Below, piece by piece: positions 40,563 through 64,000 of a stretch of 64,000 bases of DNA (its first letter is position 1; every line of letters begins with the position of its first letter). Both the position numbers and the translations under genes were made by a program. This DNA comes from an uncultured Coriobacteriia bacterium. GTDB taxonomy: Bacteria > Actinomycetota > Coriobacteriia > Coriobacteriales > QAMH01. The stretch lies in NCBI GenBank assembly GCA_959608885.1, contig CAUHSG010000003.1, positions 2,276-66,275 of the forward strand. Direction: 5' to 3'. Below the pieces are notes generated by a model. The model searched no databases and was not told where the DNA came from. It saw only the letters and a program-made list of their open reading frames with translations.

Positions 40563-40645
40563 TCGCGCGGATACGCACGTTTGGTTATGACGGTCCGGTA
40601 CAGACAAGAGCCGGGCCGTGAAAGAAGGAGAAGGAGAGTGAAGCA

Positions 40646-43012: not shown

Positions 43013-43014
43013 AT

Positions 43015-43506: not shown

Positions 43507-43639
43507 GACGGATTCCGATTCGTGACATTTTCACAGTCTCCACGGGGGCGTCTCGCATGGTCGGGTCGCCCCCTTGGGGGGAGATGGAAGGCAAGAGCCG
43601 CCGGGGCGGTTTTGTCTCATTGGCTTGGAAGGGGGATGC

Positions 43640-44083: not shown

Positions 44084-44095
44084 GGAGCGGATGCA

Positions 44096-46704: not shown

Positions 46705-46815
46705 GGGAGGGGAGGATTCTGGGAGATTGCCATTTTGGCCGGGGCGGTCACGCATCGCGAGACATCCTCGTCCAGGCAGAGAGACAAGCACGATAAGAGA
46801 GGAAAGGAAGGAAAC

Positions 46816-49118: not shown

Positions 49119-49466
49119 ATGAGAAACGGACTGTTAATCGATTACGAGTTTTGCACGGGCTGCCAGTCCTGCGAGGTCGCCTGCCAGAAGGAGCACGGTT
49201 TCGAGGCCGGCACCTGGGGTATTCGCGTGCTTGACGAAGGTCCTTGGGAGGTCGACGAGAAGACCATGAACTGGAACAAGATTCCCACGCCCACGACCTT
49301 GTGCGACCTGTGCGCTGACCGTACGGCGAAGGGCAAGCTTCCCACGTGCGTGCATCACTGCCTGGCTGCCGTCATGAAGTACGGCCCCATCGACGAGCTC
49401 GTCAAGGAGATGGACAAGAAACCGAACCAGGTCATGTTCGTACCAGGACCCTATATCTGCAAGTGA
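49119..49466 (+). CDS. small 8-Cys ferredoxin-like subunit (115 aa), partner of paralog D
   Basis: AGGAGGA RBS. CTGCQSCEVAC plus CDLC-x11-CVHHC. It closely resembles the paralog-A ferredoxin. Confidence 0.9.
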   Translation: MRNGLLIDYEFCTGCQSCEVACQKEHGFEAGTWGIRVLDEGPWEVDEKTMNWNKIPTPTTLCDLCADRTAKGKLPTCVHHCLAAVMKYGPIDELVKEMDKKPNQVMFVPGPYICK

Positions 49467-49567
49467 CGTTTCGAGGGCCGGGTCTCGTACCCGGCCCTCT
49501 CCGTTCGCCCTGCCGCGGGACACGGTCCCCGCCCGTTTGTCCTGCGCCCATCTACCAAGGAGGGAAC

Positions 49568-51517: not shown

Positions 51518-51539
51518 CGAACGTATGTGAGGGACAGGT

Positions 51540-51573
51540 CGATGTGTCAGGGGCCCGGTCCCCTGACACATCG
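51540..51573 (+). terminator. 14-bp-stem hairpin between the first enoate reductase and the SDR
   Basis: CGATGTGTCAGGGG-cccggt-CCCCTGACACATCG. There is no U-tract, so it may be an RNA stability or processing element rather than a terminator. Confidence 0.4.
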
Positions 51574-51607
51574 AATCGCACGTGAGAGAACGAGGAAGGG
51601 AACCGAC

Positions 51608-52426
51608 ATGGACAAGATCATCATCGAGCCCATCACCAGCATGAAGAACGCGTTTTCCGTTGCCGGCCAAAACGTCGTCATCACCGGTGGCAATCGCGGC
51701 CTGGGACGTGGCATCGCGCAGGCGTTCGCAGAGTGCGGCGCCAACGTCGCCATCCTGTGCCGTAACGAGGCCTCCGGCAACGAGGCCGCCGAGCAACTGC
51801 GCTTGCTTGGATTGCGCGCCCTCGCCGTGAAGTGCGACGTGGGGGACTTCGATTCCGTGCTGAGGGCCAAGGAGGTCGTCGCCAGGGAGTTCGACCATAT
51901 CGACACGCTTGTCAACAACGCGGGCATTGACGGCAAGCACGGCGTCTTCGACGATGCGCGCCTCGAGGAGTTCAAGCGCGTCATGAACGTTAACCTCGAT
52001 GGTGTCGCGGCGATGATCCAGGTCTTTGGCCAGTGGATGATGGACGAGGGGCGCGGTGGCGAGATCATCAACATCTCGTCGATTGGCGGCCAGGCCATTG
52101 GCGATCCGCGCGCGCATCCCATGCCCTCGTACAACGCATCGAAGGCGGCGCTTGATCATCTGACCAGGCACCTGAGCATCGTCATGGGCGATTACGGCAT
52201 TCGCGTGAACGCCATCGCCCCTGGTCCTACGCATTCGGATCTGGATGCCGGCCTTCCGCCGTCCATCACGCAGTTCATCGACGAGACCATGCCCATGCAT
52301 CGCTTTGGTGAGCCGCTCGAAATTGGTGCCCTGGCGGTGTTCCTGGCCTCGCCTGCCGCTGCGCAGATTACGGGCGTCGTCGCCAACCATGACGGCGGCA
52401 CCATGTGCGTTGGCCTGACGTTCTAG
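51608..52426 (+). CDS. short-chain dehydrogenase/reductase (SDR)
   Basis: VITGGNRGLGRGIA, NNAG and YNASKAAL (YxxxK) motifs. Confidence 0.9.
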   Translation: MDKIIIEPITSMKNAFSVAGQNVVITGGNRGLGRGIAQAFAECGANVAILCRNEASGNEAAEQLRLLGLRALAVKCDVGDFDSVLRAKEVVAREFDHIDTLVNNAGIDGKHGVFDDARLEEFKRVMNVNLDGVAAMIQVFGQWMMDEGRGGEIINISSIGGQAIGDPRAHPMPSYNASKAALDHLTRHLSIVMGDYGIRVNAIAPGPTHSDLDAGLPPSITQFIDETMPMHRFGEPLEIGALAVFLASPAAAQITGVVANHDGGTMCVGLTF

Positions 52427-52489
52427 GAGAATAGCCCGCACGGGAGGCGCGCCAGCGCAGTCCGCATTTCGAAGAATCGAGGAGTCGCC

Positions 52490-54445
52490 ATGCCCAGTTT
52501 TAACGATTTTCCGCACATTTTCACGCCGATCAAGATTCGCAATGTCGAGCTGAAGAACCGTCTCGTCTTCTCGCCGGTCGTATCGGGGCATGCGGGTGTT
52601 GTCGATGGGCAGGTCACCGAGGCACTCGTCCAGTTTCTCGGCGCTCAGGCCCGAAGCGGCGTGGGCATGGTGACCATCGGCGCCTCTCCCGTCGATCAGG
52701 GCAGGGCACGCGACTTCTTCGGCAGCCTCTCCGTCTGCAAGGACGAGGACATTCCGGGGTTGCACCGCCTTGTCGAGGAAGTACACCGATACGGGGCAGC
52801 AATTTCGTGCGAGATTCTGCACGCCGGGCGCATCGCGCAGCCCAATGCGCTCGCCGGACGCAAGGCGTGGGTGCCGTGGCTCACGCCCGACATGGACCCC
52901 GACCTTTTCGAGGAGATCACCGAGGAGCAAATGGACGAGGTCATCGATCTCTTCTGCAAGGCGGCCGTGCGTCTGCGCGATGCGGGTTTCGACATGGTGC
53001 TCATCCACGGTGCGCATGGCAACCTGGTGAGCGCGTTCTTCTCGCCGCTTACCAACCAGCGTACCGATGAGTACGGCGGATCCTTCGAGAACCGCATGCG
53101 CTTCCCGCTCAGGCTCGTGAAGGCCGTGCGTGAGGCCGTGGGCGACAACATGGCCATCGACTTCCGCATCAGCCAGAACGAATACGTCGAAGGCGGCACC
53201 ACGCTCGAGGACGTCATCACCTTTCTCAAGGCGGCGCAAGAGTACATTGATGACGCGAACCTGTCGGGCGGCTGGATCTTCGACCCGGTCTACGTCAAGT
53301 ACATGATGCCAGGCTATCCGCAGGAGCTGTGCCTCAACATCCCGCGCACCGCCATCGTCCGCGAACAGCTTGACATCCCCGTGACCTGCGTCGGCAACAT
53401 TCCCGATGTCAAGACGGCCGAGCATATCCTTGCCGAGGGCAAGGCCGACATCGTCGCTTTCGCCCGCAACATCCTCGCCGACATGGACCTGGTGAACAAG
53501 GCGTATCGCGGCGAGGAGGACACCATCCGGCCGTGCTTGCGCTGCATCGAGTGCGCGTCGCGTCCTGCCGTGGGCGGTGGCGTGCGTTGCTCGGTCAATC
53601 CGCAGCTCGGCCGCGAGCTCTACTACCGCGAGGTTCCCGAGGCGCGCGTGAAAAAGAAAGTGGTCGTCATCGGGGGTGGTCCGGCCGGCATGATGGCGGC
53701 GCAGACCGCCGTCAAGCGCGGTCACGACGTCGTCCTCTTCGAGCGTGACAAAGAGCTGGGAGGACGCCTCAAGGAGGCATCGGTGCTCTTCTGCAAGGAG
53801 CCGTACCACAAGCGCTACCTTGCCTGGGACCGTCGCGAGACGCTTGGATGCGGCGCGGACATTCGGTTGGGTGTCGAGGCGACTCCGGATCTCGTCATGG
53901 CGGAGAATCCCGACGAGGTCATCGTCGCCATCGGCGGCGAGCACATCTGCCCGCTGATTCCCGGTGCAAACGGGGACAATGTCATCACCGTAACGGAAGC
54001 GGATTTGGGACTTGCGCCCATTGGCAAGCGTGTCGTCATCGTGGGTGGCGGTTTTTCCGCGCTCGAATGCGGCATCCAGCTCGCCTACGAAGGGCATGCT
54101 GTCACGGCCATCGATGCGCAGCCCGAGGACAAGCTCTGGCGCGAGGTCATGAACGAGCTGCGCAGCGGCCTCATCGAGCTACGCGATCGTTACGGCGTGC
54201 AACTCGTCGACGAGGCCATGGTGAAGGAGATTCGCGAAGGGTCCGTCGTGTACACGCGTGGTGGCGAGGATTTCGAGATTCCCGCCGACACGGTGGTCAT
54301 GGCCTGCGGCCTGCGTCCCAACAAGGAGCTCGTAGGCCAGTTTGTGGAGATGATGCCTCAGGTCACGGTCGTAGGCGATGCGCGCCAGACGGGCAACATC
54401 TTCTCGGCGAACATGAGCGCCTTCGACGCGGCGGTGGAGCTGTAG
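52490..54445 (+). CDS. second OYE-type FMN/[4Fe-4S]/FAD oxidoreductase (2-enoate reductase family)
   Basis: MPSFNDFPHIFTPIKIRNVELKNRLVFSP, HGAHGNLVSAFFSPLTNQRTDEYGGS, RPCLRCIECASRPAVGGGVRCSVNP and VVVIGGGPAGMMAAQTA. It is a paralog of the 49568 gene. Confidence 0.9.
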   Translation: MPSFNDFPHIFTPIKIRNVELKNRLVFSPVVSGHAGVVDGQVTEALVQFLGAQARSGVGMVTIGASPVDQGRARDFFGSLSVCKDEDIPGLHRLVEEVHRYGAAISCEILHAGRIAQPNALAGRKAWVPWLTPDMDPDLFEEITEEQMDEVIDLFCKAAVRLRDAGFDMVLIHGAHGNLVSAFFSPLTNQRTDEYGGSFENRMRFPLRLVKAVREAVGDNMAIDFRISQNEYVEGGTTLEDVITFLKAAQEYIDDANLSGGWIFDPVYVKYMMPGYPQELCLNIPRTAIVREQLDIPVTCVGNIPDVKTAEHILAEGKADIVAFARNILADMDLVNKAYRGEEDTIRPCLRCIECASRPAVGGGVRCSVNPQLGRELYYREVPEARVKKKVVVIGGGPAGMMAAQTAVKRGHDVVLFERDKELGGRLKEASVLFCKEPYHKRYLAWDRRETLGCGADIRLGVEATPDLVMAENPDEVIVAIGGEHICPLIPGANGDNVITVTEADLGLAPIGKRVVIVGGGFSALECGIQLAYEGHAVTAIDAQPEDKLWREVMNELRSGLIELRDRYGVQLVDEAMVKEIREGSVVYTRGGEDFEIPADTVVMACGLRPNKELVGQFVEMMPQVTVVGDARQTGNIFSANMSAFDAAVEL

Positions 54446-54919: not shown

Positions 54920-55013
54920 GGTGATTCCCTTCGTCGGATGTCCGAATCATTACAGCATGACAGTGCCCGCGGAGTAAAGAAACGCTCCGTTGCGTTTCTC
55001 CGACACCGACAGG

Positions 55014-55042
55014 TGGGACAAGTGGACAGGTCATTTGTCCCA
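55014..55042. repeat. type-A palindromic intergenic repeat
   Basis: TGGGACAAGTGGACAGGTCATTTGTCCCA, with one stem mismatch. Confidence 0.8.
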
Positions 55043-55242
55043 TTTTCTTCTTTGCAAACACATTGAGTGTGATGTCATTCACGTAGCCATCGATGATTCT
55101 TTTCCTAACGAGTCATATGTCTTGGTCCACTATCAGTTTCAATAATGAGGACGCATAACGGGAAACCGCGCGAACGGGAGAGCCGAAGCCTAAAAAGAGG
55201 GAGGGGTGTTTTGTCAGGCAGAACAAAAATGTGATCAAAAAT

Positions 55243-55278
55243 CTTGTAAAATCCGGAATGGATTCCGGAATTTACAAG
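55243..55278. promoter_or_regulatory. 36-bp inverted repeat immediately upstream of the ATPase RBS (operator or leader hairpin candidate)
   Basis: CTTGTAAAATCCGGAAT-gg-ATTCCGGAATTTACAAG, with one mismatch between the arms. It ends 5 nt before the AAGGAG RBS. Confidence 0.45.
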
Positions 55279-55293
55279 ATTTAAGGAGTCGCG

Positions 55294-56565
55294 ATGTATA
55301 TCGAGCGAGCACTTGAACCTCTCGTGAGACGATATTCTTTGTACTTTAAAGCCGTCGTGGTGACGGGTCCTCGTCAGGTGGGCAAAACCACAATGCTCAA
55401 GCACATGATGGAGCAAGATGCCGAGCGCGGCTTCAAACGAAACTATGTCACGATGGACGACACCGCCCTGAGGATGGCAGCGCAAGAGGACCCGGCCCTT
55501 TTCCTCCAGAGATACAAGGCTCCCATCCTCATCGATGAGATTCAGAAAGCGCCGGAGCTTCTTCCCTATATCAAGATCGCGCTCGACTCCAGTGATGAGA
55601 ACGGGTCTTTTTGGCTTACCGGATCACAGCCGTTCCACCTCATGAAACACGTCTCCGAGACGCTTGCGGGGCGAGTCGGCATCATCGAAATGCTCGGTTT
55701 ATCTAACTCCGAGATAGCCGGCGTGCAATCGCAACCATTTGATCCGGGGAAGGGATATTTTGAAAGTCGCGTCGGGGTGACCAAGCCCTTTGACGTAACG
55801 GAGGCTTACGAGCGTATTGCCGCGGGATCGCTTCCGGGAATTCGTGCGTTACCGGCCGATCTGCGTGCCGGTGCCTATGAATCATATCTCGACACATACA
55901 TCATGCGCGACATACGGGATTTGGCACAAGTTGCAGACGAGTTGAAGTTCAGGCGGTTTATGTCTGCTTGTGCGGCACTTACGTCGAAGCCGATTGTATA
56001 TGCGGACTTGGCGAGGATGGCAGACATCGACGAGAAGACGGCAAAATCGTGGCTTTCTCTGCTTACTAGCTCCTATCTGGTGAAAATTGTCTCTCCATAT
56101 GCGAATAACCTGCTCAAAAGACTGAACAAGCAGCCAATAATGCACTTCACAGATACGGGCCTTGCATCTTATCTCGCGGGTTGGCAAGACGCCCGGACGC
56201 TTGAGCTTGGCGCCATGGCGGGTCAGATGTTCGAAACCTATGCATTTGGGGAAATATGCAAGAGCTTTGCAAATGCCGGCATCAAGCCCGCCCTCTACTT
56301 CTTCAGGACCACTTCCCAACGAGAAATTGATCTTGTCCTGGAGCGGAACGGAACTCTCTTTCCCATTGAGGTAAAGAAAAGCGCCTCTCCTACCCGAGCA
56401 GACGTGAAGAACTTTCGGGCACTAGAGCCTGTCGAAGAGACGAACGTCTCCGACGAATTGCGCACGAGGCGCCGCATGGTTGGTGTCGGGACGGAGATAT
56501 GCATGGCGAGTGACGCGTTCCCCATAAGCGAGAACGCGTGGGCATTCCCGATTTGGGCAATTTAG
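55294..56565 (+). CDS. AAA-type ATPase with a DUF4143 C-terminal domain
   Basis: Walker A VVTGPRQVGKTT and Walker B-like ILIDEIQ. The C-terminal REIDLVLERNGTLFPIEVK region is restriction-endonuclease-fold-like, as is typical of the AAA_14/DUF4143 family. Confidence 0.85.
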   Translation: MYIERALEPLVRRYSLYFKAVVVTGPRQVGKTTMLKHMMEQDAERGFKRNYVTMDDTALRMAAQEDPALFLQRYKAPILIDEIQKAPELLPYIKIALDSSDENGSFWLTGSQPFHLMKHVSETLAGRVGIIEMLGLSNSEIAGVQSQPFDPGKGYFESRVGVTKPFDVTEAYERIAAGSLPGIRALPADLRAGAYESYLDTYIMRDIRDLAQVADELKFRRFMSACAALTSKPIVYADLARMADIDEKTAKSWLSLLTSSYLVKIVSPYANNLLKRLNKQPIMHFTDTGLASYLAGWQDARTLELGAMAGQMFETYAFGEICKSFANAGIKPALYFFRTTSQREIDLVLERNGTLFPIEVKKSASPTRADVKNFRALEPVEETNVSDELRTRRRMVGVGTEICMASDAFPISENAWAFPIWAI

Positions 56566-56632
56566 AATGCTCGTCAAAAGTCGCAATTTGCGACCTTATA
56601 ATGCCCCCGCGCTCAAGATTCGAGCGCGCCTT

Positions 56633-56956
56633 TTACGCGTGCCGGAAAGCGAACGCATTGTTCTCGCTGGTTGGGGAGGGCTTCGGGTTACGAAATCCGT
56701 ACGTTATATCCATGTCGAGCGCACATTCCAGCTTTGCTATTGTCTTTAGGGTCATGTTTTGATTGCCCTTGATTATCTTGGTGATTTGTGCCGGAGATAC
56801 GCCCATGCGCTCAGCCAGCTCTCGTTTGCTTATGCCGAGCTCCTCCATGCGCGCATAGACTGCTCCCGATATGTCCATAGAGTAAAAATAGGCCATGTCT
56901 TCGGGTGGCAGTCGTTCGTCGAGCAGGTGCTCTAGGCTTCCTCCATCTTCAATCAT
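56633..56956 (-). CDS. XRE-family HTH antitoxin (HigA-like)
   Basis: ISKRELAERMGVSPAQITKIIKGNQNMTLKTIAKLECAL. Its start overlaps the stop of the upstream toxin-like reading frame by 8 nt. Confidence 0.8.
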   Translation of the reverse strand: MIEDGGSLEHLLDERLPPEDMAYFYSMDISGAVYARMEELGISKRELAERMGVSPAQITKIIKGNQNMTLKTIAKLECALDMDITYGFRNPKPSPTSENNAFAFRHA

Positions 56957-57343
56957 CGTGCCCCTCCATTATCAATCCTGCGGCAATCGCCGTCAGCTTC
57001 TTTCCCCTGTCCATGACATGCTTGGGTATGCCCGCATGCTTGCCCTGGTGTTCATCAAAGTCGAATAGATAGACGGGCGTGGCATCATGATGCACGTAAG
57101 TCATTATGCGTATAACCTTTCCATCTACCTTTAGCTCGTAAAGAGAAAGACTGGTGCCTAGAAATCTGAGCTTGTTCGCCTGCCGTGCCCACTTTGTGCC
57201 GTTGCCTTGACGATAGCGTTCGCTCTCTGGCGTGTCTTTGGGTCGCCAGCGAGCTTCTCGATGAAAGACTTGGTATGCGCAGGCGCGAGAACAATGGCGG
57301 ATTGTCCTGCTCCCAGATCGTACGCAATCAGCCTATGTGCCAC
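56949..57343 (-). pseudogene. HigB/Gp49-like (DUF891-type) toxin gene, apparently frameshifted
   Basis: Two reading frames are needed. The frame from GTG 57343 (AAAGGA RBS) reads VAHRLIAYDLGAGQSAIVLAPAHTKSFIEKLAGDPKTRQRANAIVKATAQ and stops at 57158. Another frame continues as WARQANKLRFLGTSLSLYELKVDGKVIRIMTYVHHDATPVYLFDFDEHQGKHAGIPKHVMDRGKKLTAIAAGLIMEG to the stop at 56949. The switch lies near 57185-57200. Confidence 0.5.
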
Positions 57344-57363
57344 TACCGTTCCTTTGTTTGATA

Positions 57364-57381
57364 TTTTACTTATAAGTAAAA
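57364..57381. promoter_or_regulatory. perfect 18-bp AT-rich palindrome upstream of the toxin-antitoxin pair (operator candidate)
   Basis: TTTTACTTATAAGTAAAA lies ~20 nt upstream of the putative toxin start. Confidence 0.5.
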
Positions 57382-57646
57382 TAATTGCAATATGAGAACC
57401 TGTCCTTCCGCTATGTGTTTCATAGTTGGCAAGGACTGCTATCTGCATATCGTAGTGGCTCGACCTAACAGTTTCGTCGAATGGTTTGGTCGAATCACCA
57501 TATGAACCCGGGGTAAAATCGGGCATTTATCGGGCATTTGCTCGAGTAAGCTCCAACTCCGCCATCGACAAGAAAGGGGCGGCCCCATCGGTCGGGAGGC
57601 CGCCCCCAGGCCCGGCTTTTAACCGGTCGAGCAGAGTGATACGTGC

Positions 57647-58468
57647 TTAGCCGGCCGCGTAGAGTGACACGGGACCCATGTTGCGATCCTCGTCGACGGT
57701 CGACGCCTCGACCATGCGGGTCATGTAACCTTCGGCCTCGAAGTACACCTGCCAGTTACCGGCAGCGATCTGGTGGAACCAGAAGTCCCCGAAGTCGTCG
57801 GTCTGCGTGACCAGCACCTCACCGGTATCGACGTTCTGCGCCGTCACCTTGGCGCCAATCAGGACCTCGTCCTCTTCAGGATCGATGACGATTCCCGCCA
57901 GGAAGCGCTTGGGCAGGTTCAGGTAATGCATGCGTGGCCTGTCGCGATCGGCGCGCTCGGGCATGAGCGCCTCGGCCTGCTCGAGCTCCTCAGCGAACTC
58001 CTCCTCGTCGCCAAAGCGAATGGCTCCGTGCGGACATACGTCAACGCAATGGGGGATTTCGCCAGCGTCGATGAGATGGGCGCAGCCCGTGCACTTCTGG
58101 GGAATCTCGAGCTCCTCGTTCCAGAAAATCGCACCGTAGGGGCAGGCCTCCACGAGTTCCTTGTGGCCTTTCGCCTTGGAGGGGTCAATGATCACAAGGC
58201 CGTCGTCACGCTTGTACACCGCTTCGGGGGCGGCGCTCATGCATGGGGCGCCATCGCAATGCTGGCACATGTGCATGATGTATGCGATCTTTACCTTGGG
58301 GACTTGCCCGCGAATCCTTTCCTCGATGCGCGTCCAGAACTGGCCCGTGTCGGGCTGGGGTTTCGAATAGGGAAGCCACTCGTTATCGACGTGCTCGTCC
58401 TTGCAGGCCAGCTGGCAGTTGCGGCAACCGTTGCACTTGGCTGCGTCAAAGATGAAAGTCTTACCCAT
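57647..58468 (-). CDS. pyrogallol hydroxytransferase small (beta) subunit-like iron-sulfur protein with a C-terminal beta-sandwich domain
   Basis: 273 aa. CNGCRNCQLAC, CQHCDGAPC and CTGCAHL...CVDVCP ferredoxin motifs are followed by LAGIVIDPEEDEVLIGAKVTAQNVDTGE...DFGDFWF. The layout matches the BthL subunit of Pelobacter transhydroxylase as I recall it. Confidence 0.88.
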   Translation of the reverse strand: MGKTFIFDAAKCNGCRNCQLACKDEHVDNEWLPYSKPQPDTGQFWTRIEERIRGQVPKVKIAYIMHMCQHCDGAPCMSAAPEAVYKRDDGLVIIDPSKAKGHKELVEACPYGAIFWNEELEIPQKCTGCAHLIDAGEIPHCVDVCPHGAIRFGDEEEFAEELEQAEALMPERADRDRPRMHYLNLPKRFLAGIVIDPEEDEVLIGAKVTAQNVDTGEVLVTQTDDFGDFWFHQIAAGNWQVYFEAEGYMTRMVEASTVDEDRNMGPVSLYAAG

Positions 58469-58470
58469 GG

Positions 58471-61080
58471 TTATTCCCCCTCAACGATACGAGCTGTGGC
58501 AACGAGGCCGCATGCCGGGTCATACGCGCGCTCAAATGCCTCGGGATATTCCTGTGCGAGCTTGAAGACGTCTACTTTCTCCACGTTAACCAGGAAGCCC
58601 GAGGTAACCTCTCCGGCCGCGTTCTTGGAGGTGGTGGGGGTGGGGGCGATGAGGTTGTTCGCCCCACCGCGGTCAAGACCGCCCTCACCCAAGACGATGG
58701 TGTCGCAACGCGCACCGTGATCCTGATAGACGGCACCGGGCATGATGCGCTCGGAAACGAGCACGCCACCCAGGACGGCGCCACGTTCGTTGTAGATTTT
58801 CGCGACATCGCCCGTTTCGAGGCCGAGTTTGCCGGCATCGATGGGGTTGACCCAAAGGGGCTCATACAGATAGCCGTCGGGACCCTTCACCTTGCACGTC
58901 TCTATCTCGCGGAACCATGTGACGTCGTCATGTTGTGCGTGGACGCGGAAGTGTGGATGGTTGCTCACCAGAAGGAAGGGATACTTTCGACCACGCTCCA
59001 GGTATTGCCTTTCCTGATGTCCGGCGCCTTCGTCAATCCAGTGGGGGATGGGACCTCGCTCCTTGTCATCCGGGAAGTAGCTGGCGAGCGTCGTGGAGTA
59101 GTACTCCAGCTTGCCAGATGGGGTGCGGAGCGGATGACCTTCGGGATCCTCGTAGAACTCGATGAGGCCCGCCGGTATCTCCTTCCAATCCTCGCGGGTC
59201 GGGAAGGCGTAGTACTGGCGCTCCACGAACTCGTCGAAACTCAGGTCCTCGGGCGCACCGGAGGATTCGAAGCCAACCCTGATCCACTCCTCATCCGTCT
59301 TGCCACCCAGGTACTTGTCGTAGATGCCCTCGTAGATGCCCCCGTAGCTCTCCAGCTTCTTCGCGACGATGCCCACGGCCTCCTTGTCGGAGACGGATTC
59401 CCCGATGGGCTTGATGGCCTGCTTCTCGTAGAACACGACATTCCACTGGCCCGAGTCGTTGTCCGTGCCGATGTCCGCCGTCTCGAACTTGGTGTTGGTG
59501 GGCAGGATGATGTCGGCGAACATGGTGTCGTTCTCCATCCAGGGATGCTGGACGATGACCGTCTCGATGCTCTCGTGCCGAAGGGCGTCTTGCATCTTGA
59601 ATCCGCCGTTCCAGCAGGTTTCCCAGCAAGGCGAGTCGGACCAAACCATGTGGATGCGGCTTCCGCCCTCGGGCGGGAACGTGAACTCGAGGAACTGGTC
59701 CTCTCTCGGAAGACCGGCGTTTACGTGGCCATACCAGCTGATGGGCGGGTTCATGATGGCTTCGGGGATGCGGGTCTTGGGAATGAACGAGGGCTTGGTG
59801 CCGGTGACGAAACCTCGATAGGCGGCACCCAGGCTGGGGATGTTGGTGGAGGGGGGAAGCACATCCAGCGTCGGGATGCCGAAAAGCGTCCACTCGAGGA
59901 ACTTGAACTGGTTCGCTCCGGGTTTGCCAACGCCTTGCATGCCCAGGAGCGCTACCTCCAGACGTGCCGGCTCGTGGGCGAAGCAGCTGCGGATGAAGCT
60001 ACCGCCGTTGCAATGCGCGATGGATACCGCATGCTTTGCCCAGTAACGCGCGAGGGCCTTGATGGTGTATGCGGGAATCCCGCAGATCTTCTCGGCCCAC
60101 TTGGGCGTCTTGGGCACGCCGTCCTCGCCGCCCAGGACATAGTACTTGAAGTTCTCGAAGCCCACGGCATGCGTCTCGAGGTAGTCCTTGTCGTACGTAT
60201 CTTCCTTGATCCAGGTGTAGGCGATTGCGAGCTGCAGGGCGGCGTCGGTGTTGGGAAGCACGGGAATCCACTTGTCCGCATGGACGCCGTTGGCATAGTT
60301 GACGTCGGGCGCGATGTGGATTTGCCTCACGCCGATTTCCGTAAACCAGAAGCACAGGCGGCTTGCCATCTGTCCGCCCCATCCCAGTGGCGTCGTCTCG
60401 GGGTCGCATCCCCAGAACAGCACGGCATCGCCGTTTTCCGAGATGTCCTTGATGATGTTGTTCTGGAGGTTTTGCTGGCCGAGGGGATCCATGCCCCAGA
60501 TGTGCTTGGCGCCCCAGTACCAGCCTTCCCAGGAGTCCGGCTGACGGGATTGGATCGTGAATCCACCGCAAAGGTCCAGCAGCTGGGAGATGCAGCCGTG
60601 CGAGGCGTGGACGACCTTCGTCTCGCCGTGGCCGTCGATTTCCAGCAAGATGGATTCCGGACCGTATTCGTCGTGCATGCGCTTTATCTCGGCAGCGCAA
60701 ATCTCGGCCGCCTCGTCCCAGGAAATGCGCTCGTAATCAGACGACCCGCGGTTCTGGGGGTTGCGCTCGCCATCGGGGTCCCAATCGACGCGCTTCATGG
60801 GGTAGGGGATGCGGTTCTTGGAGTAGACGCGCTTTTTGTAGCATAGCGAGAGCGGGGACATGTGGGTCTTGAAGCCCGGCTCGAATACATGGCCCCTTGC
60901 CTCGATCTTCCAGGCATTCAGCTCCTCGGGGGTCTGATGCTCGTCAAAGTGGAAGGGACGAATGCGGATGATCTTATCGTTCTCCTCGTCGATGTCGACA
61001 GTGCAGGCGTTGCTCCCCAGGCCAAAGCTGTCAAAGCCCAGGCCCTTGATTATGGGAGTGCCCTTCACATCGTTGCTCAT
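58471..61080 (-). CDS. pyrogallol hydroxytransferase large (alpha) subunit-like molybdopterin oxidoreductase (no N-terminal Fe-S motif)
   Basis: 869 aa. RIPYPMKRVDWDPDGERNPQNRGSSDYERISWDEAAEI and PDSWEGWYWGAKHIWG closely parallel the AthL sequence as I recall it. There is no TAT signal. A strong GAGAGGAGAAGGAG RBS precedes it. Confidence 0.88.
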   Translation of the reverse strand: MSNDVKGTPIIKGLGFDSFGLGSNACTVDIDEENDKIIRIRPFHFDEHQTPEELNAWKIEARGHVFEPGFKTHMSPLSLCYKKRVYSKNRIPYPMKRVDWDPDGERNPQNRGSSDYERISWDEAAEICAAEIKRMHDEYGPESILLEIDGHGETKVVHASHGCISQLLDLCGGFTIQSRQPDSWEGWYWGAKHIWGMDPLGQQNLQNNIIKDISENGDAVLFWGCDPETTPLGWGGQMASRLCFWFTEIGVRQIHIAPDVNYANGVHADKWIPVLPNTDAALQLAIAYTWIKEDTYDKDYLETHAVGFENFKYYVLGGEDGVPKTPKWAEKICGIPAYTIKALARYWAKHAVSIAHCNGGSFIRSCFAHEPARLEVALLGMQGVGKPGANQFKFLEWTLFGIPTLDVLPPSTNIPSLGAAYRGFVTGTKPSFIPKTRIPEAIMNPPISWYGHVNAGLPREDQFLEFTFPPEGGSRIHMVWSDSPCWETCWNGGFKMQDALRHESIETVIVQHPWMENDTMFADIILPTNTKFETADIGTDNDSGQWNVVFYEKQAIKPIGESVSDKEAVGIVAKKLESYGGIYEGIYDKYLGGKTDEEWIRVGFESSGAPEDLSFDEFVERQYYAFPTREDWKEIPAGLIEFYEDPEGHPLRTPSGKLEYYSTTLASYFPDDKERGPIPHWIDEGAGHQERQYLERGRKYPFLLVSNHPHFRVHAQHDDVTWFREIETCKVKGPDGYLYEPLWVNPIDAGKLGLETGDVAKIYNERGAVLGGVLVSERIMPGAVYQDHGARCDTIVLGEGGLDRGGANNLIAPTPTTSKNAAGEVTSGFLVNVEKVDVFKLAQEYPEAFERAYDPACGLVATARIVEGE

Positions 61081-61159
61081 GCTCCTTCTCCTCTCATGCG
61101 TGGTTCTTGCTATCGGTCATGATGGCGCCGCGAGCCGTGCGTCCAGACAGTCCGGATGC

Positions 61160-61387
61160 CTATGCGCCCGGCTTGGGCGGGGTCGGCACCGTGGGGACCT
61201 TGATTCCCGGGGCGGGAACGGCCGGAGCGCCGGGAGCGCCGGGTACGGTCGGGATGCCGGCCGAAGGAGGTGCGGGGTCGGCCTTGGCTCCGCAGTTGGG
61301 ACACTGGTCCAAGGTGGGATCGACCTCTGCCCCACATTTGGGGCATTTCACGGGGCCGGCATCAAGGGAAGGCGGTCTGAAGCACAT
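61160..61387 (-). CDS. small zinc-ribbon protein (75 aa): N-terminus MCFRPPS and a Pro-rich tail
   Basis: From ATG 61387 (AAAGGAAAG RBS): MCFRPPSLDAGPVKCPKCGAEVDPTLDQCPNCGAKADPAPPSAGIPTVPGAPGAPAVPAPGIKVPTVPTPPKPGA. It shares the MCFRP start and the PGAPGAP tail with the 36436 protein. Confidence 0.6.
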   Translation of the reverse strand: MCFRPPSLDAGPVKCPKCGAEVDPTLDQCPNCGAKADPAPPSAGIPTVPGAPGAPAVPAPGIKVPTVPTPPKPGA

Positions 61388-61493
61388 GATCTTTCCTTTC
61401 TTTTTTGTGCCCTCCTTGTCAGGGGGAGGCAAATTTCACGGTAATTGAGCGCCGGCGGATGGGCTGGATGGCACCCGCCGGCACAAGGAGGGC

Positions 61494-61817
61494 CTAGGTA
61501 AAGAGCGCCATTTTTGGCTTGTCTAACTTGTCCTTCAGCTCTTCGAAGGTTCCGACGTAGATGCAGCCAGCTTGGCAATGTTGCATGCAGCTTGGGGCCT
61601 TGCCCGCGGCCTGCCGGGGTGCGCAGCGGTTGCAGCGGTCTGTGGGAACGGGAACGAACTCGTATTGCCACTTTCGCTCGCTGAGCTGGTCGGGACCGAT
61701 CTGATGCAGCTTGATGCCGTATTTGTCGGGCCCGAGGCCGTTTTCCTGCTGGCAGGCTATCTCACAGGTGTGGCAGCCGGAGCAGTACTCGTAGTCGATG
61801 GCGATCATCTGTCTCAT
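61494..61817 (-). CDS. small 8-Cys ferredoxin-like subunit (107 aa), partner of paralog E
   Basis: CSGCHTCEIAC plus CNRC-x11-CMQHC. It has the same architecture as the three plus-strand mini-ferredoxins and starts 6 nt after the upstream stop. Confidence 0.88.
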   Translation of the reverse strand: MRQMIAIDYEYCSGCHTCEIACQQENGLGPDKYGIKLHQIGPDQLSERKWQYEFVPVPTDRCNRCAPRQAAGKAPSCMQHCQAGCIYVGTFEELKDKLDKPKMALFT

Positions 61818-61823
61818 CTCTCG

Positions 61824-64000
61824 TCACTCCCCAATCTTCTCGATGCTGCAAAGCTGCGATTTGTACGAGGCACCCAATCCGACCTTGCCGGGGCGCATGG
61901 GAACCAGCTTGTTCACGTTGGACTCCATGACGCCGAAGAGCGTGCCGTCTTCCGGTCCCCGCTCCGGGAACCACCAGGCATGGTCAGCGGATACGGTGTC
62001 CTTGCGGATGCGTACGGTGAGGTGCGCCTTGTGCTTGCACGATCCGTACTGGTTTTCGAGCTTCACCCAGTCGCCTTCGTCGATGCCGTACTTCGCCGCG
62101 GTTTCGGGGTGAATCAGCACGGTCGGTTCCGGGTGCAGTCTGCGCATGGAAGGGCTCTGGCGATGTTCGGAGTGGAAGAAGCCCCAGGGGCGGGCGCCGG
62201 TCGTGAGCACCAGGGGGTACTTCTCGGCAAGTTCCGGGCAGGATACCGGGCTTTCCGGCGGCTCTTCGTAGTCTGCCAGAGGCGACAGGCCGAACTTGAC
62301 CATCTCGGGACAATAGAAGTTGTAGCGACCCGTCGACGTGGCAAACCCGACGCTTCCATCCCAGCGGAGCATGCCCTTCTCGTTCTTGTTGTACTCGAAC
62401 TCGGGATAGGCCCAGGTGCGCTCTCGCAGTTCCTCGTAGGTGTAGCCGGTATCGCGCAGCAGGTAGTCGTAGAAACCCTCCTCGTCATCCCACTGCTTGT
62501 ATTCGTCTGTCGTGAAGTGGCTTCCGACCTCGTAGATGATTCGCTGGTCGGACTTGCATTCGCCAAGGGGCTCGACGGCCTGGGCAATGGCGCCAAGGGC
62601 GTAGGGCTGGTGTCCTGTGATGCCGATGCGCTCGGCGAAGCACGCTGCGGGCAAGACGATGTCTGCGCATGCCAGTGCCGTCGGCGTCATGAACAGGTCC
62701 ACGACGACGTTGAAGTCCATGTTCTGCAGCGCCGGCAGAATGCGCTGGGGCTGGGCACCCATGCACGCGATGGCGTTGTTCTGCATCATGAACATCGCCT
62801 TGATGGGATAGGGCTCGCCGGTTTCCATCGCCTTGAGCAACATGTCGGGGCTGATTGCCGCCATCGCCTTGAGGGCCGGATAGTCGAAGTTCATGGTTCG
62901 GCCCTGGTCCTTCACGGGCTCCGAACACTCGGCCCACACCCTGTCACGCGGCATCCACGTCACGCTCATGTCCCATACCGGATTGGCGGCGACCATCGTG
63001 CCGGGCTTTTCGAAATTGCCCGTCAAGGCCATGAGGTCGAAGCAGGCCATGCCGGTGATGAAGCCCTCGGAAGTGTGGTCCATGGCCACGCCCCACTGCA
63101 GGCAGGCGTTCTTGGCGCGACCGAGCGCACAGGCAGCCTCGACTATCAGGTCCGCATCGACCCCGCAGGTCTCAGCTGCGAACTCGGGCGTGTATTTGGC
63201 GACGTTCTCCTTGAACTCATCGTATCCGTAGCACCAGTAGTCGATGAAGTGCTGGTCCTGCAGGTCGTTCTGGATGATGACGTTGCACATGGCGAGTGCG
63301 AGGGCGCAGTCCGTGCCGGGGCGCACCTGGAACCAGTATTCGGCCTTGCCGGCAAGCCAGGTAAGGGTGGGATCCATGACCATGAGCTTGCTGCCGCGTT
63401 TCATGCACTCGACGATCCAGTGGCCCAGGGTGCCGTCGGAGTTGGCGACCACGGGATTGTTGCCCCAGACCAGAATGTACTCGGGGCGTTCCCACTCGGG
63501 ATTATCGTAGCGGTCGGGGAAGAACTGCGAGTAGTCGCAGATGTAGAGGCCACCAGCCTTCAGGGCCGTGGAGAAGATGCGGGGCGCGTAGCATGCCTGG
63601 CCGGAGAGGAAACCCGTGCCGTAGTTGGGGGTGCCGAAGTACTGCGCCATGAGGGGTCCGTACCCGTTGATGTCTCGACCGGTTCCCTGGGTGACCCAGA
63701 TCGCCTCGGGGCCATAGGTATCGATGACCTTCTTCATCTCGCGTTCGATGATTTCGTATGCCTCGTCCCAGCTGATCTGGGTAAACGCGTTCTTGCCGCG
63801 GTCCTTCCTGTCCCGCTTCAGCGGATGGCGCAGACGGTCGGGATGGTAGAGCATTTCCTTGAAGGCGAGGCACCGCGGACACAGGCGACCTTGGTTGTAC
63901 GGGTTCTCGGGATCGCCCTCAATCTTCTCCAGGACGCCGTCTTTGACGTACATGAGAACACCGCAATTGTCGTGGCATCCCGGTCCCGAGCGCGCGTTCG
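61824..64000 (-). CDS. molybdopterin (bis-MGD) oxidoreductase catalytic subunit, paralog E (5' end beyond the right edge)
   Basis: The ORF-track M at 63953 is internal. The frame stays open to 64000 and reads ...SGPGCHDNCGVLMYVKDGVLEKIEGDPENPYNQGRLCPRC, which is the same N-terminal Cys motif region as paralogs A to D. Confidence 0.9.
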   Translation of the reverse strand, partial: NARSGPGCHDNCGVLMYVKDGVLEKIEGDPENPYNQGRLCPRCLAFKEMLYHPDRLRHPLKRDRKDRGKNAFTQISWDEAYEIIEREMKKVIDTYGPEAIWVTQGTGRDINGYGPLMAQYFGTPNYGTGFLSGQACYAPRIFSTALKAGGLYICDYSQFFPDRYDNPEWERPEYILVWGNNPVVANSDGTLGHWIVECMKRGSKLMVMDPTLTWLAGKAEYWFQVRPGTDCALALAMCNVIIQNDLQDQHFIDYWCYGYDEFKENVAKYTPEFAAETCGVDADLIVEAACALGRAKNACLQWGVAMDHTSEGFITGMACFDLMALTGNFEKPGTMVAANPVWDMSVTWMPRDRVWAECSEPVKDQGRTMNFDYPALKAMAAISPDMLLKAMETGEPYPIKAMFMMQNNAIACMGAQPQRILPALQNMDFNVVVDLFMTPTALACADIVLPAACFAERIGITGHQPYALGAIAQAVEPLGECKSDQRIIYEVGSHFTTDEYKQWDDEEGFYDYLLRDTGYTYEELRERTWAYPEFEYNKNEKGMLRWDGSVGFATSTGRYNFYCPEMVKFGLSPLADYEEPPESPVSCPELAEKYPLVLTTGARPWGFFHSEHRQSPSMRRLHPEPTVLIHPETAAKYGIDEGDWVKLENQYGSCKHKAHLTVRIRKDTVSADHAWWFPERGPEDGTLFGVMESNVNKLVPMRPGKVGLGASYKSQLCSIEKIGE

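What the first reader, a model, noticed from the sequence alone, without database searches (positions are those of the whole stretch)
57647..64000. Reverse-strand operon joining an acetylene-hydratase-like module to a pyrogallol-transhydroxylase-like alpha/beta pair
The order on the minus strand is: paralog E (truncated by the window edge), an 8-Cys mini-ferredoxin, the MCFRP zinc-ribbon protein, an 869-aa alpha subunit and a 273-aa beta subunit.

The alpha/beta pair shows striking motif-level similarity to the Pelobacter acidigallici transhydroxylase subunits. The alpha subunit has RIPYPMKR...DPDGERNPQNRG...YERISWDEA and PDSWEGWYWG. The beta subunit has three ferredoxin Cys motifs plus a C-terminal beta-sandwich.

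Gene spacings are 2-106 nt, consistent with one transcript. Two mechanistically different molybdoenzyme types (hydroxyl-transfer type and hydratase/dehydroxylase-like) in one operon suggest a sequential aromatic-hydroxyl editing pathway.
Basis: partly seen in the sequence, partly recalled or inferred. Interest (0 to 1): 0.6.

Follow-up and report, generated by a model that had tools for sequence, protein, structure and literature searches.

The report
Paired molybdenum enzymes for polyphenol hydroxyl editing
A gut Gordonibacter-like bacterium places a catechol-dehydroxylase-type molybdenum enzyme next to a distant, uncharacterised cousin of pyrogallol transhydroxylase, together with a tiny conserved 'MCFRP' zinc-ribbon protein, which suggests a second, unstudied class of polyphenol-modifying enzymes in gut and anaerobic bacteria.

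Summary
On the minus strand lie E (61824 to beyond 64000, acetylene-hydratase-like), a 107-aa di-cluster ferredoxin, a 75-aa MCFRPP zinc-ribbon protein, an 869-aa alpha and a 273-aa beta. The gaps are 6, 106, 79 and 2 nt, and a terminator-like hairpin follows beta.

Alpha and beta hit the Pelobacter transhydroxylase subunits best (4V4C; 1.5e-128 and 3e-51). Alpha is nevertheless only 34% identical to AthL. It belongs to a separate, deep sister lineage (NJ bootstrap 100%). That lineage keeps the Mo-Ser, Asp and His residues but lacks the Tyr404 loop, His145, Trp147 and Arg153, which are invariant in true transhydroxylases.

E with its ferredoxin matches the published 'Gordonibacter-type' catechol dehydroxylases.

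Near-identical contigs show a divergent LysR regulator plus MFS and DASS transporters upstream. Orthologues of E and of alpha/beta stay linked through four different rearrangements, but closely related alpha/beta pairs sit beside a different E lineage or none.

Best reading: an inducible cytoplasmic two-enzyme cluster that edits the hydroxyls of an imported polyphenolic acid, not a pyrogallol-phloroglucinol pathway.

Side finding: MCFRP small proteins form an undescribed cross-phylum family adjacent to both enzyme types.

The parts
61824..64000 (-). E: catalytic subunit of a Gordonibacter-type (acetylene-hydratase-like) bis-MGD enzyme, cut by the window edge. The full length is 762 aa in the near-identical contig L083.
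   Evidence: Pfam gives Molybdop_Fe4S4, Molybdopterin and Molydop_binding. The best PDB hit is 2E7Z acetylene hydratase at 2.5e-81, and the Cys aligns with the W/Mo-ligand Cys. The N-terminus recovered from L083 has no twin-arginine signal. Fragments of its orthologue are in the published catechol-dehydroxylase alignment.
61494..61817 (-). 107-aa di-cluster ferredoxin, the electron-transfer partner of E.
   Evidence: It matches Fer4_11 and Fer4, and the first and last cluster motifs of DmsB/PsrB-type proteins. It follows E-like genes in nearly all related loci. The same kind of gene follows window paralogues A, B and D.
61409..61493 (-). Strongly structured RNA segment in the 106-nt gap between the ferredoxin gene and the MCFRP gene.
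   Evidence: Minimum free energy is -42.5 kcal/mol with z=-3.5; 0 of 200 shuffles folded as well. No U-tract follows it and there is no Rfam match. Its function is unknown; it could be a terminator, an attenuator or a processing site.
61160..61387 (-). 75-aa MCFRPP zinc-ribbon protein with a Pro/Ala-rich tail.
   Evidence: Only generic zinc-ribbon Pfam hits and no NCBIfam hit. M-C-F-R-P and four Cys are invariant in homologues across phyla. In the closest relatives that lack E it stays directly upstream of alpha.
58471..61080 (-). Alpha: Ser-ligated bis-MGD subunit without an N-terminal Fe-S cluster, from a deep sister lineage of AthL/PgtL.
   Evidence: Pfam gives AhtL-like_1st, Molybdopterin and Molydop_binding. 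4V4C_A scores 1.5e-128. Identity to an AthL-type protein is 34%.
57647..58468 (-). Beta: subunit with three [4Fe-4S] clusters and a C-terminal beta-sandwich.
   Evidence: Fer4_11 plus CarboxypepD_reg. 4V4C_B scores 3e-51 over residues 5-249. It has 12 Cys in the BthL pattern. It follows alpha in almost every related locus.
57570..57607 (-). Terminator-like hairpin (GGGGGCGGCC...GGCCGCCCC followed by TTTCTT) that closes the gene row.
   Evidence: Read from the sequence and folded. It is conserved in L083 even though the downstream DNA differs.

Best explanation
The region is the distal part of a substrate-inducible, cytoplasmic gene cluster of a Gordonibacter-like Eggerthellaceae bacterium. The cluster modifies the hydroxyl pattern of an imported, probably anionic, polyphenol using two different bis-MGD molybdenum enzymes.

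Shown:
- E plus its 107-aa ferredoxin has the anatomy of the published Gordonibacter-type catechol dehydroxylases. It resembles acetylene hydratase, has a Cys metal ligand and no export signal, and is followed by a small two-cluster partner.
- Alpha/beta belongs to the transhydroxylase/resorcinol-hydroxylase superfamily. It has a Ser ligand in PDSWEGW, conserved His and Asp, no Fe-S cluster in alpha, and three clusters plus a beta-sandwich in beta.
- Alpha/beta nevertheless sits in a separate, uncharacterised lineage that lacks the Tyr404 loop, His145, Trp147 and Arg153 of true transhydroxylases.
- In the same species a divergent LysR regulator, an MFS transporter and a DASS transporter lie just upstream of E.

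Inferred:
- E reductively removes one hydroxyl of a catechol or pyrogallol group.
- Alpha/beta binds a phenolic oxygen at Mo. It either adds or removes a ring hydroxyl, exchanging electrons through beta, rather than swapping hydroxyls with a tetrahydroxybenzene co-substrate.
- The two enzymes act on the same compound or on successive intermediates.
- The MCFRP protein is an accessory factor of alpha/beta.
For: - Family assignments.
- Separate lineage: identity is at least 52% within the window clade, at least 59% within the AthL clade, and only 30-39% between them. In NJ bootstrap the window clade gets 100% and AthL plus the proteobacterial clade gets 100%.
- Site comparison over 81 sequences.
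- Cluster context from contigs L082-L085 (same species): LysR | E-fdx-MCFRP-alpha-beta, with MFS and DASS upstream.
- Linkage of E orthologues (73-88% identical) with alpha/beta orthologues (77-87%) persists in four arrangements. These are co-directional (window), beta then E (L087), divergent (L096, L099, L101), and convergent with LysR-MFS-DASS in between (L092, L095, L103).
- Similar alpha-beta-E-fdx rows occur in Anaerolineales, Peptococcaceae and Syntrophomonadaceae.
- Neighbours of window-clade alpha in 78 species-representative loci are regulators (LuxR, LysR) and transporters (MFS, DASS). This is the same pattern described for catechol dehydroxylases (PMC12771579).
- True AthL loci have different neighbours.
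- In Desulfitobacterium, alpha/beta is followed by HdrD-like CCG proteins. That suits a redox-active enzyme.
Against: - No substrate, activity or transcript data exist for these genes.
- About 75% of window-clade alpha/beta loci have no E-like neighbour, so alpha/beta must be able to work alone.
- The alpha orthogroup (78-84% identical) sits beside two different E lineages (46-49% identical to each other) or none.
- E homologues at 53-68% identity have no alpha/beta nearby.
- These genomes carry roughly 60 molybdoenzyme genes each (305 in five strains, PMC12771579), so some adjacency is expected by chance.
- A very stable hairpin in the 106-nt gap could end the E-fdx transcript.
- The catalytic roles I attach to AthL residues rest on my memory of Messerschmidt et al. 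2004, which I could not open.
Confidence: 0.5

Rival explanations
1. Two-step reductive dehydroxylation. Alpha/beta runs in the reductive direction, like the second half-reaction of transhydroxylase or the reverse of resorcinol hydroxylase, and removes a hydroxyl that catechol dehydroxylases cannot. E removes a catecholic hydroxyl. Both serve as electron sinks for a hydrogen- or formate-oxidising gut bacterium. This is a specific version of the best explanation.
For: The physiology of Eggerthellaceae is dominated by inducible reductive dehydroxylations (PMC7028382, PMC12771579). Beta keeps all 12 cluster Cys. There are several alpha/beta paralogues per genome, each with its own regulator and transporter, as for catechol dehydroxylases. 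HdrD-like partners lie next to alpha/beta in Firmicutes and Dehalococcoidia.
Against: No member of the AthL/RhL superfamily is known to act as a net reductase. No electron donor is encoded in the cluster. The direction of the reaction cannot be read from sequence.
Confidence: 0.3
2. Chance or loosely linked neighbours. E-fdx and MCFRP-alpha-beta are independent units with unrelated substrates that lie together only because the genome is packed with molybdoenzyme genes.
For: There are about 60 molybdoenzyme genes per Gordonibacter genome (PMC12771579). The window itself holds four more paralogues. The nearest alpha/beta orthologues in G. pamelaeae-like loci L002 and L003 have no E within 10 kb. 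Different E lineages sit next to the same alpha orthogroup. A stable hairpin lies between the units. L086 has the E orthologue (88% identical) but no alpha/beta within 7.5 kb.
Against: Linkage survives four distinct rearrangements together with the same LysR, MFS and DASS genes. Only one regulator is visible for both units in this species. Comparable pairings occur in Chloroflexota and Bacillota, where such paralogue crowds are not expected. Alpha and E identities co-vary, Mantel r=0.78, although this is inflated by shared ancestry.
Confidence: 0.25
3. Alpha/beta is a genuine pyrogallol-phloroglucinol transhydroxylase that feeds a phloroglucinol degradation route, with E supplying or trimming trihydroxybenzenes.
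For: The best solved-structure matches are AthL and BthL. The Ser, Asp and His equivalents are conserved. The sizes are nearly identical: 869/273 aa against 875/274 aa.
Against: Identity is 34% and the lineage is separate with 100% bootstrap. The AthL-invariant His145, Trp147, Arg153 and the Tyr404 loop are missing. AthL-clade loci have flavodoxin-like and UbiD neighbours and no E or ferredoxin. The nearby SDR is generic, not phloroglucinol-reductase-like. Ring-cleaving polyphenol catabolism is not reported for Eggerthellaceae in the papers read.
Confidence: 0.07

Closest known systems
Pyrogallol-phloroglucinol transhydroxylase AthL/BthL (PgtL) of Pelobacter acidigallici, PDB 4V4C
   Same: Cytoplasmic alpha/beta architecture. 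Alpha has an AthL-like first domain and no Fe-S cluster. The Ser Mo ligand lies in PDSWEGW, and the His144, Asp174, Trp176 and Arg359 equivalents are conserved. Beta has three [4Fe-4S] clusters and a C-terminal beta-sandwich. The subunit sizes are almost identical.
   Different: Only 34% identity, and a separate deep lineage. The window protein lacks His145, Trp147, Arg153 and the 12+15-residue Tyr404 loop, and the Tyr560 segment is shortened. The genomic context differs: no flavodoxin-like or UbiD genes, but regulator, transporter, MCFRP and sometimes E-fdx genes instead.
Resorcinol hydroxylase RhLS (Azoarcus anaerobius) and 3,5-dihydroxybenzoate hydroxylase DbhLS (Thauera aromatica AR-1)
   Same: Same Ser-ligated cytoplasmic alpha/beta superfamily (PMC10100899). 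These are net redox enzymes that pass electrons through beta, which is the behaviour I infer for the window pair.
   Different: Proteobacterial relatives that I could fetch (Ensifer, Burkholderia megaplasmids) group with AthL, not with the window clade. They keep the Tyr404 loop.
Gordonibacter-type catechol dehydroxylases (Dodh, Cldh, Gp Hcdh, Eadh1-3)
   Same: E is a catalytic subunit of about 760 aa that is closest to acetylene hydratase. It has no export signal and is followed by a small 4Fe-4S protein, with an MFS transporter and a transcription regulator nearby. Its orthologue fragments appear in the published alignment of putative catechol dehydroxylases.
   Different: The substrate is unknown. 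The regulator is of LysR type rather than LuxR type. E lacks the first Cys that its window paralogues have in the N-terminal cluster motif. It is joined to an AthL-like pair, which the papers read here do not describe.
eam (ellagic acid metabolism) gene cluster of Gordonibacter/Ellagibacter
   Same: An inducible cluster that combines two molybdenum enzymes acting in sequence on one polyphenol, plus transporters and a regulator (PMC12771579).
   Different: Both eam enzymes are catechol dehydroxylases of the same class. Here the second enzyme comes from a different branch of the superfamily, and no decarboxylase is present.

Membership tests
Pyrogallol-phloroglucinol transhydroxylase sensu stricto (AthL/BthL clade) | Alpha with bis-MGD fold, AthL-like first domain and no N-terminal Fe-S cluster | tested here: met
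   Pfam PF21423, PF00384 and PF01568; no Cys motif at the N-terminus.
Pyrogallol-phloroglucinol transhydroxylase sensu stricto (AthL/BthL clade) | Ser175 Mo ligand with neighbouring Asp174, and His144 | tested here: met
   The window residues are H151, D182 and S183. They are invariant in 41 window-clade and 40 AthL-clade sequences.
Pyrogallol-phloroglucinol transhydroxylase sensu stricto (AthL/BthL clade) | Residues invariant in the AthL clade: His145, Trp147, Arg153, the Tyr404 loop and the Tyr560 segment | tested here: not met
   The window has Gly, Thr and Ser at the first three positions. The Tyr404 loop is absent and the Tyr560 segment is 10 residues shorter, with Trp in place of Tyr. 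The functional roles of these residues are from my memory of the 2004 structure paper.
Pyrogallol-phloroglucinol transhydroxylase sensu stricto (AthL/BthL clade) | Phylogenetic placement inside the AthL clade | tested here: not met
   Between-clade identity is 30-39%, against at least 59% within the AthL clade. In NJ bootstrap the window clade gets 100% and AthL plus the proteobacterial clade gets 100%.
Pyrogallol-phloroglucinol transhydroxylase sensu stricto (AthL/BthL clade) | Beta subunit with three [4Fe-4S] clusters and a C-terminal beta-sandwich | tested here: met
   12 Cys in the BthL pattern, a CarboxypepD_reg hit, and 4V4C_B at 3e-51.
Pyrogallol-phloroglucinol transhydroxylase sensu stricto (AthL/BthL clade) | Pyrogallol to phloroglucinol conversion with a 1,2,3,5-tetrahydroxybenzene co-substrate | not testable with these tools
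   Needs an enzyme assay.
PgtL/RhL superfamily (Ser-ligated cytoplasmic alpha/beta bis-MGD enzymes acting on phenols) | Groups with AthL and relatives to the exclusion of TorA/BisC-type S-/N-oxide reductases, and shares the D-S-W motif | tested here: met
   Rooted NJ tree with two outgroups, 100% bootstrap for the joint clade. PDB scores are 433 bits to AthL against 242 bits to DMSO reductase.
Gordonibacter-type catechol dehydroxylase (for E plus ferredoxin) | Catalytic subunit of about 750-780 aa that is closest to acetylene hydratase among characterised enzymes, with no TAT signal | tested here: met
   2E7Z at 2.5e-81. The 762-aa full length and its N-terminus without a twin-arginine motif come from L083.
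Gordonibacter-type catechol dehydroxylase (for E plus ferredoxin) | Adjacent small 4Fe-4S protein, with transporter and regulator nearby | tested here: met
   The ferredoxin starts 6 nt downstream of E. LysR and MFS are upstream in L083.
Gordonibacter-type catechol dehydroxylase (for E plus ferredoxin) | Placement in the published catechol-dehydroxylase clade alongside Cldh and Dodh | tested here: inconclusive
   Orthologue fragment '3C-NODE_8' and relative '28C-NODE_2 3' are in the eLife Fig. 7 source alignment.
Gordonibacter-type catechol dehydroxylase (for E plus ferredoxin) | Reductive removal of a catecholic hydroxyl | not testable with these tools
   Needs an enzyme assay.
Acetylene hydratase | Cys metal ligand, plus the Asp directly after the second cluster Cys (Asp13, from my memory of the AH structure) | tested here: not met
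   The ligand Cys aligns. However, E has C-H-D-N-C where acetylene hydratase has C-D-I-N-C, so His follows the Cys. Identity is low, so E is not a hydratase orthologue.

The most novel reading that the evidence does not exclude
Alpha/beta and E-ferredoxin form an electron-coupled 'split transhydroxylase'. Alpha/beta hydroxylates the ring with oxygen from water, and the two electrons released pass through beta and the small ferredoxin to E, which removes a neighbouring hydroxyl. A hydroxyl group is thereby relocated without any tetrahydroxybenzene co-substrate.

In addition, the MCFRP proteins would be a previously unrecognised third component, either a subunit or a maturation factor. They would be shared by cytoplasmic phenol-editing molybdenum enzymes across Actinomycetota, Bacillota and Chloroflexota.
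Probability: 0.12. Interest if true: 0.8.

Novelty: new variant of a known kind. Interest (0 to 1): 0.55.

Why it matters
Work on gut polyphenol metabolism has so far focused on catechol dehydroxylases and, recently, on xanthine-oxidase-type dehydroxylases. AthL has served only as a tree outgroup in that work.

This locus shows that Gordonibacter and many other anaerobes carry a large lineage of AthL-related alpha/beta enzymes. The lineage is multi-paralogue, each copy has its own regulator and transporter, and no member has been characterised.

If these enzymes add, remove or move ring hydroxyls at positions that catechol dehydroxylases cannot reach, they could account for currently unassigned steps in the metabolism of dietary phenolics and drugs.

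The locus offers a concrete test case: five genes, one LysR regulator, and a genetically tractable relative.

The MCFRP small-protein family is a separate lead on how these cytoplasmic molybdenum enzymes are assembled or wired.

Tried and rejected
- **Structure and resorcinol papers.** I tried to read the 2004 transhydroxylase structure paper and the 2007 resorcinol-hydroxylase paper to confirm residue roles and RhL identities. Neither is held. A text search for the residue names found nothing relevant.
- **Phloroglucinol reductase.** I tested whether the nearby SDR (51527-52426) is a phloroglucinol reductase. It gives only generic SDR hits, so I dropped the idea.
- **Known RNA families.** I scanned 56500-64000 against Rfam, including for a Moco riboswitch. 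There were no matches at E up to 1.
- **Promoters and terminators.** The consensus scan found no internal signals on the minus strand and missed the hairpin after beta because its loop is long. I found that hairpin by eye and by folding.
- **Neighbour-gene clustering.** A first pass picked longest ORFs and was contaminated by antisense ORFs of this high-GC DNA. One cluster of 25 loci was antisense to alpha/beta. I kept only clusters with Pfam support.
- **Is E the DOPAC dehydroxylase Dodh?** The published dodh cluster has a LuxR regulator and a different gene list, so this is unlikely, but it is not excluded.
- **Prior literature.** Searches for Gordonibacter with hydroxytransferase, pyrogallol, resorcinol or gallic acid dehydroxylation gave no study of these alpha/beta genes.
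- **RhL and DbhL.** I could not include these sequences in the tree because no tool gave access to them.


Full report
**1. What is in the sequence**

The minus strand between 57647 and the window end carries five co-directional genes.
- E, 61824 to beyond 64000. The frame is open to the edge.
- A 107-aa ferredoxin, 61494-61817.
- A small zinc-ribbon protein. Its likely start is the ATG at 61387, giving MCFRPP... and 75 aa. This ATG has a Shine-Dalgarno sequence.
- Alpha, 58471-61080, 869 aa.
- Beta, 57647-58468, 273 aa.

The gaps are 6, 106, 79 and 2 nt. A GC-rich hairpin followed by TTTCTT lies 40-77 nt after the beta stop codon. It is conserved in a near-identical contig whose downstream DNA differs.

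The 106-nt gap between the ferredoxin gene and the MCFRP gene folds into an unusually stable structure: -42.5 kcal/mol, z=-3.5. It has no U-tract and no Rfam match. Whether there is one transcript remains open.

**2. Family assignments**

Alpha has the AthL-like first domain plus the two molybdopterin domains and no Fe-S motif. Its best solved relative is the large subunit of pyrogallol hydroxytransferase (4V4C_A, E=1.5e-128, 434 bits). The best DMSO reductase scores 242 bits.

Beta matches the small subunit (4V4C_B, 3e-51). The match includes the C-terminal CarboxypepD_reg-like sandwich. Beta has 12 Cys in the three-cluster pattern.

E has an Fe4S4 domain plus the molybdopterin domains. It is closest to acetylene hydratase (2E7Z, 2.5e-81), and its Cys aligns with the metal-ligand Cys.

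The ferredoxin corresponds to the first and last cluster motifs of DmsB/PsrB-type proteins.

**3. Organism and the missing upstream part**

Alpha is 99% identical to a contig of an uncultured Coriobacteriaceae MAG and 79-87% identical to Gordonibacter species.

Metagenome contigs L081-L085 are 99-100% identical to the window and extend it. They show the following.
- E is 762 aa and has no twin-arginine signal.
- A promoter-like TATAAT and a Shine-Dalgarno sequence precede E.
- A LysR regulator is transcribed divergently.
- Beyond the LysR gene lie an MFS transporter, a DASS (Na_sulph_symp/CitMHS) transporter, an FAD oxidoreductase and an AMP-dependent ligase.

**4. Alpha is not a transhydroxylase orthologue**

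I rebuilt AthL residues 16-869 from the HMMER alignments and searched with that sequence. AthL has its own large clade at 61-96% identity.

In a joint alignment of 81 sequences both clades keep His144, Asp174, Ser175, Trp176 and Arg359. The following are invariant in the AthL clade and absent from all 41 window-clade sequences:
- His145, Trp147 and Arg153
- a 12+15-residue loop carrying Tyr404
- a 10-residue segment around Tyr560

Identity is at least 52% within the window clade, at least 59% within the AthL clade, and 30-39% between them. BLASTP against an AthL-type protein gives 34% identity over 873 residues.

Proteobacterial relatives on megaplasmids lie beside ring-cleavage-type genes. 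They share the AthL-specific features. TorA/BisC-type outgroups lack them, as the window clade does.

NJ bootstrapping with 200 replicates gives the following support:

| Grouping | Bootstrap support |
|---|---|
| Window clade | 100% |
| AthL clade | 99.5% |
| AthL plus the proteobacterial clade | 100% |

The window alpha therefore represents a deep sister lineage that never acquired the Tyr404 loop. The catalytic roles of these residues come from my memory of Messerschmidt et al. 2004, which I could not open.

**5. E is a known kind**

The literature describes 'Gordonibacter-type' catechol dehydroxylases. They are smaller than the Eggerthella enzymes, lack a TAT signal and are closest to acetylene hydratase. 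They are paired with a small 4Fe-4S protein and flanked by MFS transporters and regulators (PMC7028382, PMC11887054, PMC12771579). E fits all of these points.

The source alignment of putative catechol dehydroxylases in the eLife paper contains a G. pamelaeae 3C fragment ('3C-NODE_8') that closely matches E, and a Gordonibacter 28C relative. The window holds four more paralogues: A at 36729-39095, B at 40646-43012, C at 44371-46704 and D at 46735-49107. They are 39-43% identical to E, and a ferredoxin gene follows A, B and D.

The DOPAC-induced dodh cluster has a LuxR regulator and a different gene list, so E is probably not Dodh.

**6. Is the pairing meaningful?**

*Seeded by alpha.* Among 80 species-representative loci, beta almost always follows alpha. 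An E-like gene with a ferredoxin lies within 10 kb in 19 loci. These include Anaerolineales, Peptococcaceae and Syntrophomonadaceae.

*Seeded by E.* Among 80 metagenome loci, orthologues at 73-88% identity keep alpha/beta orthologues (77-87%) nearby in four arrangements, together with LysR, MFS and DASS genes:
- co-directional, as in the window
- beta followed by E (L087)
- divergent (L096, L099, L101)
- convergent, with LysR-MFS-DASS in between (L092, L095, L103)

One orthologue, L086, has no alpha/beta within 7.5 kb. Homologues at 53-68% identity have none.

*Partner swapping.* Within one alpha orthogroup (78-84% identical) the adjacent E belongs to two different lineages that are 46-49% identical to each other. 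The closest G. pamelaeae-type loci have no E at all.

*Background density.* Five strains carry 305 molybdoenzyme genes, about 60 per genome (PMC12771579). Some adjacency is therefore expected by chance.

I read this as moderate evidence for a functional cluster in this lineage. It is clear evidence that alpha/beta does not depend on E in general.

**7. Context of the window clade**

The commonest neighbours of window-clade alpha are MFS transporters, LuxR and LysR regulators, and DASS transporters. HdrD-like CCG proteins also appear in some anaerobes. This is the same pattern as for substrate-inducible catechol dehydroxylases.

True AthL loci look different. AthL-BthL is followed by a flavodoxin-like protein, with UbiD decarboxylase nearby and no E or ferredoxin.

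No phloroglucinol-pathway gene is evident near the window genes. The nearby SDR is generic.

**8. Mechanism**

Best-supported reading: an inducible cytoplasmic cluster in which a catechol-dehydroxylase-type enzyme and an AthL-superfamily enzyme both act on the hydroxyl pattern of one imported, probably anionic, aromatic compound.

What is shown is limited to the families, the conserved metal-site residues, the cofactor-binding motifs, the lack of export signals, and the regulator and transporter context.

What is inferred is that alpha/beta is redox-active, acting as a hydroxylase or a reductive dehydroxylase that uses beta's clusters, rather than a co-substrate-dependent transhydroxylase.

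The most novel reading is a redox-neutral 'split transhydroxylase' in which alpha/beta hydroxylates and E dehydroxylates with internal electron transfer. It is possible but unsupported beyond gene adjacency.

**9. The MCFRP protein**

The small protein between the two units belongs to a family that I found in about 40 distinct loci. The family has the following features.
- The N-terminus M-C-F-R-P is invariant.
- A CPxCG...CxxCG ribbon usually follows.
- The tail is Pro/Ala/Lys-rich in Eggerthellaceae and Lys/Glu-rich in Firmicutes.

A profile search returned 144 proteins. Of the 120 listed, 104 start with MCFRP, and they are named only 'zinc-ribbon domain-containing' or 'hypothetical'.

Starting from the small protein alone, 6 of 7 genomic places lie next to a bis-MGD enzyme. 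Two are AthL-like alpha/beta pairs (Desulfitobacterium, Formimonas). Four are an E-like enzyme plus ferredoxin (D. hafniense, Moorella, Sporomusa, Syntrophomonas).

Of 45 distinct copies, 33 are co-oriented with and within 1.5 kb of such a gene. This count is biased, because most of the loci were chosen around those enzymes.

Cys and Phe codons vary synonymously, so selection acts on the peptide. Arg4 is encoded by AGA in 37 of 47 copies, although AGA makes up 2% of Arg codons in the window's molybdoenzyme genes.

A second copy at 36436-36639, just upstream of paralogue A, keeps MCFRPA and the PGAP repeats but lacks the ribbon Cys. 'MCFRP' gives no relevant hit in the paper library. The function is unknown.

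**10. Verdict**

- E plus ferredoxin is a new member of a known kind.
- Alpha/beta is a member of an uncharacterised deep lineage of a known superfamily.
- Its pairing with a catechol dehydroxylase and the MCFRP accessory protein are not described in the literature I could search.

Interest is moderate. A specialist in gut polyphenol metabolism would find a concrete, testable lead rather than a surprise.

Noticed in passing
window 61160-61387 (-) and 36436-36639 (+); also L002-L170 (about 40 distinct loci): There is a family of small proteins with an invariant MCFRP N-terminus, usually a zinc ribbon, and a Pro/Ala/Lys-rich tail. It is found across Actinomycetota, Bacillota, Chloroflexota and Syntrophorhabdales next to AthL-like or acetylene-hydratase-like molybdenum enzymes. 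There is no specific Pfam or NCBIfam model and no relevant literature hit. The second window copy, upstream of paralogue A, lacks the ribbon cysteines.
   Followed up: yes
window 61376-61378 (codon 4 of the MCFRP gene) and homologues: Arg4 is encoded by AGA in 37 of 47 copies, although AGA is about 2% of Arg codons in the window's molybdoenzyme genes. The neighbouring Cys and Phe codons vary freely. This may reflect a translation-initiation or rare-codon effect.
   Followed up: partly
window 61409-61493 (-): An unusually stable RNA structure (-42.5 kcal/mol, z=-3.5) fills the gap between the ferredoxin gene and the MCFRP gene. Its outer stem pairs GCCCUCCUUGU with ACAAGGAGGGC. There is no U-tract and no Rfam family. 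The upstream sequence is not conserved in relatives.
   Followed up: partly
window about 54999-57556: A roughly 2.55-kb lower-GC insertion is absent from the otherwise near-identical contig L083. It carries an AAA/DUF4143 ATPase (55294-56565), an HTH protein (56633-56956) and a 122-aa ORF. It is flanked by an imperfect 14-bp direct repeat, TGTCG(A/G)TG(G/T)CGGAG, and is probably a small integrated element.
   Followed up: partly
L083 3699-5114 and many related loci (L005, L007, L008, L017, L054, L086, L092, L096, L101, L104, L164): DASS-family (Na_sulph_symp/CitMHS) transporters recur next to window-clade alpha/beta and E genes, sometimes in two copies. This hints that the substrates are anionic, for example aromatic acids or sulfated or sulfonated compounds.
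   Followed up: partly
window 49346-54445 (+): Two Old-Yellow-Enzyme/2,4-dienoyl-reductase-like flavoproteins (723 and 651 aa) flank an SDR, convergent with the operon. An OYE-like gene also follows beta in L014, and SDR genes flank the pair in L020. A link to the molybdenum enzymes is possible but was not tested.
   Followed up: no
window 31448-49107 (+): A row of MFS, LuxR, MFS, MCFRP-like protein, molybdenum enzyme A with ferredoxin, a TorD-like chaperone (39466-40245), then molybdenum enzymes B, C and D. It is a dense island of Gordonibacter-type dehydroxylase paralogues that are 39-43% identical to E.
   Followed up: partly
L083 7887-8130 (N-terminus of E) compared with window paralogues A-D: E and a Gordonibacter 28C relative lack the first Cys of the N-terminal cluster motif: RSNARSGPGCHDNCG against RGCAWSPPGCHPxGCG in A-D. 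They still have four Cys in total because of a downstream CPRC.
   Followed up: partly
eLife 2020 supplementary file 2d/2e (G. pamelaeae 3C, C1877_13910): A 'hypothetical protein' gene immediately upstream of the DOPAC dehydroxylase gene is induced about 1000-fold together with it. By position it could be an MCFRP-family member. I had no sequence to check this.
   Followed up: no
L171 (Ensifer pT173c) and L172 (Burkholderia plasmid): There is a proteobacterial branch of the AthL family with an alpha of about 995 aa carrying an N-terminal extension. It sits on megaplasmids beside VOC-type dioxygenases, fumarylacetoacetate hydrolase and acyl-CoA synthetase. It is annotated only as 'molybdopterin-dependent oxidoreductase'.
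   Followed up: partly
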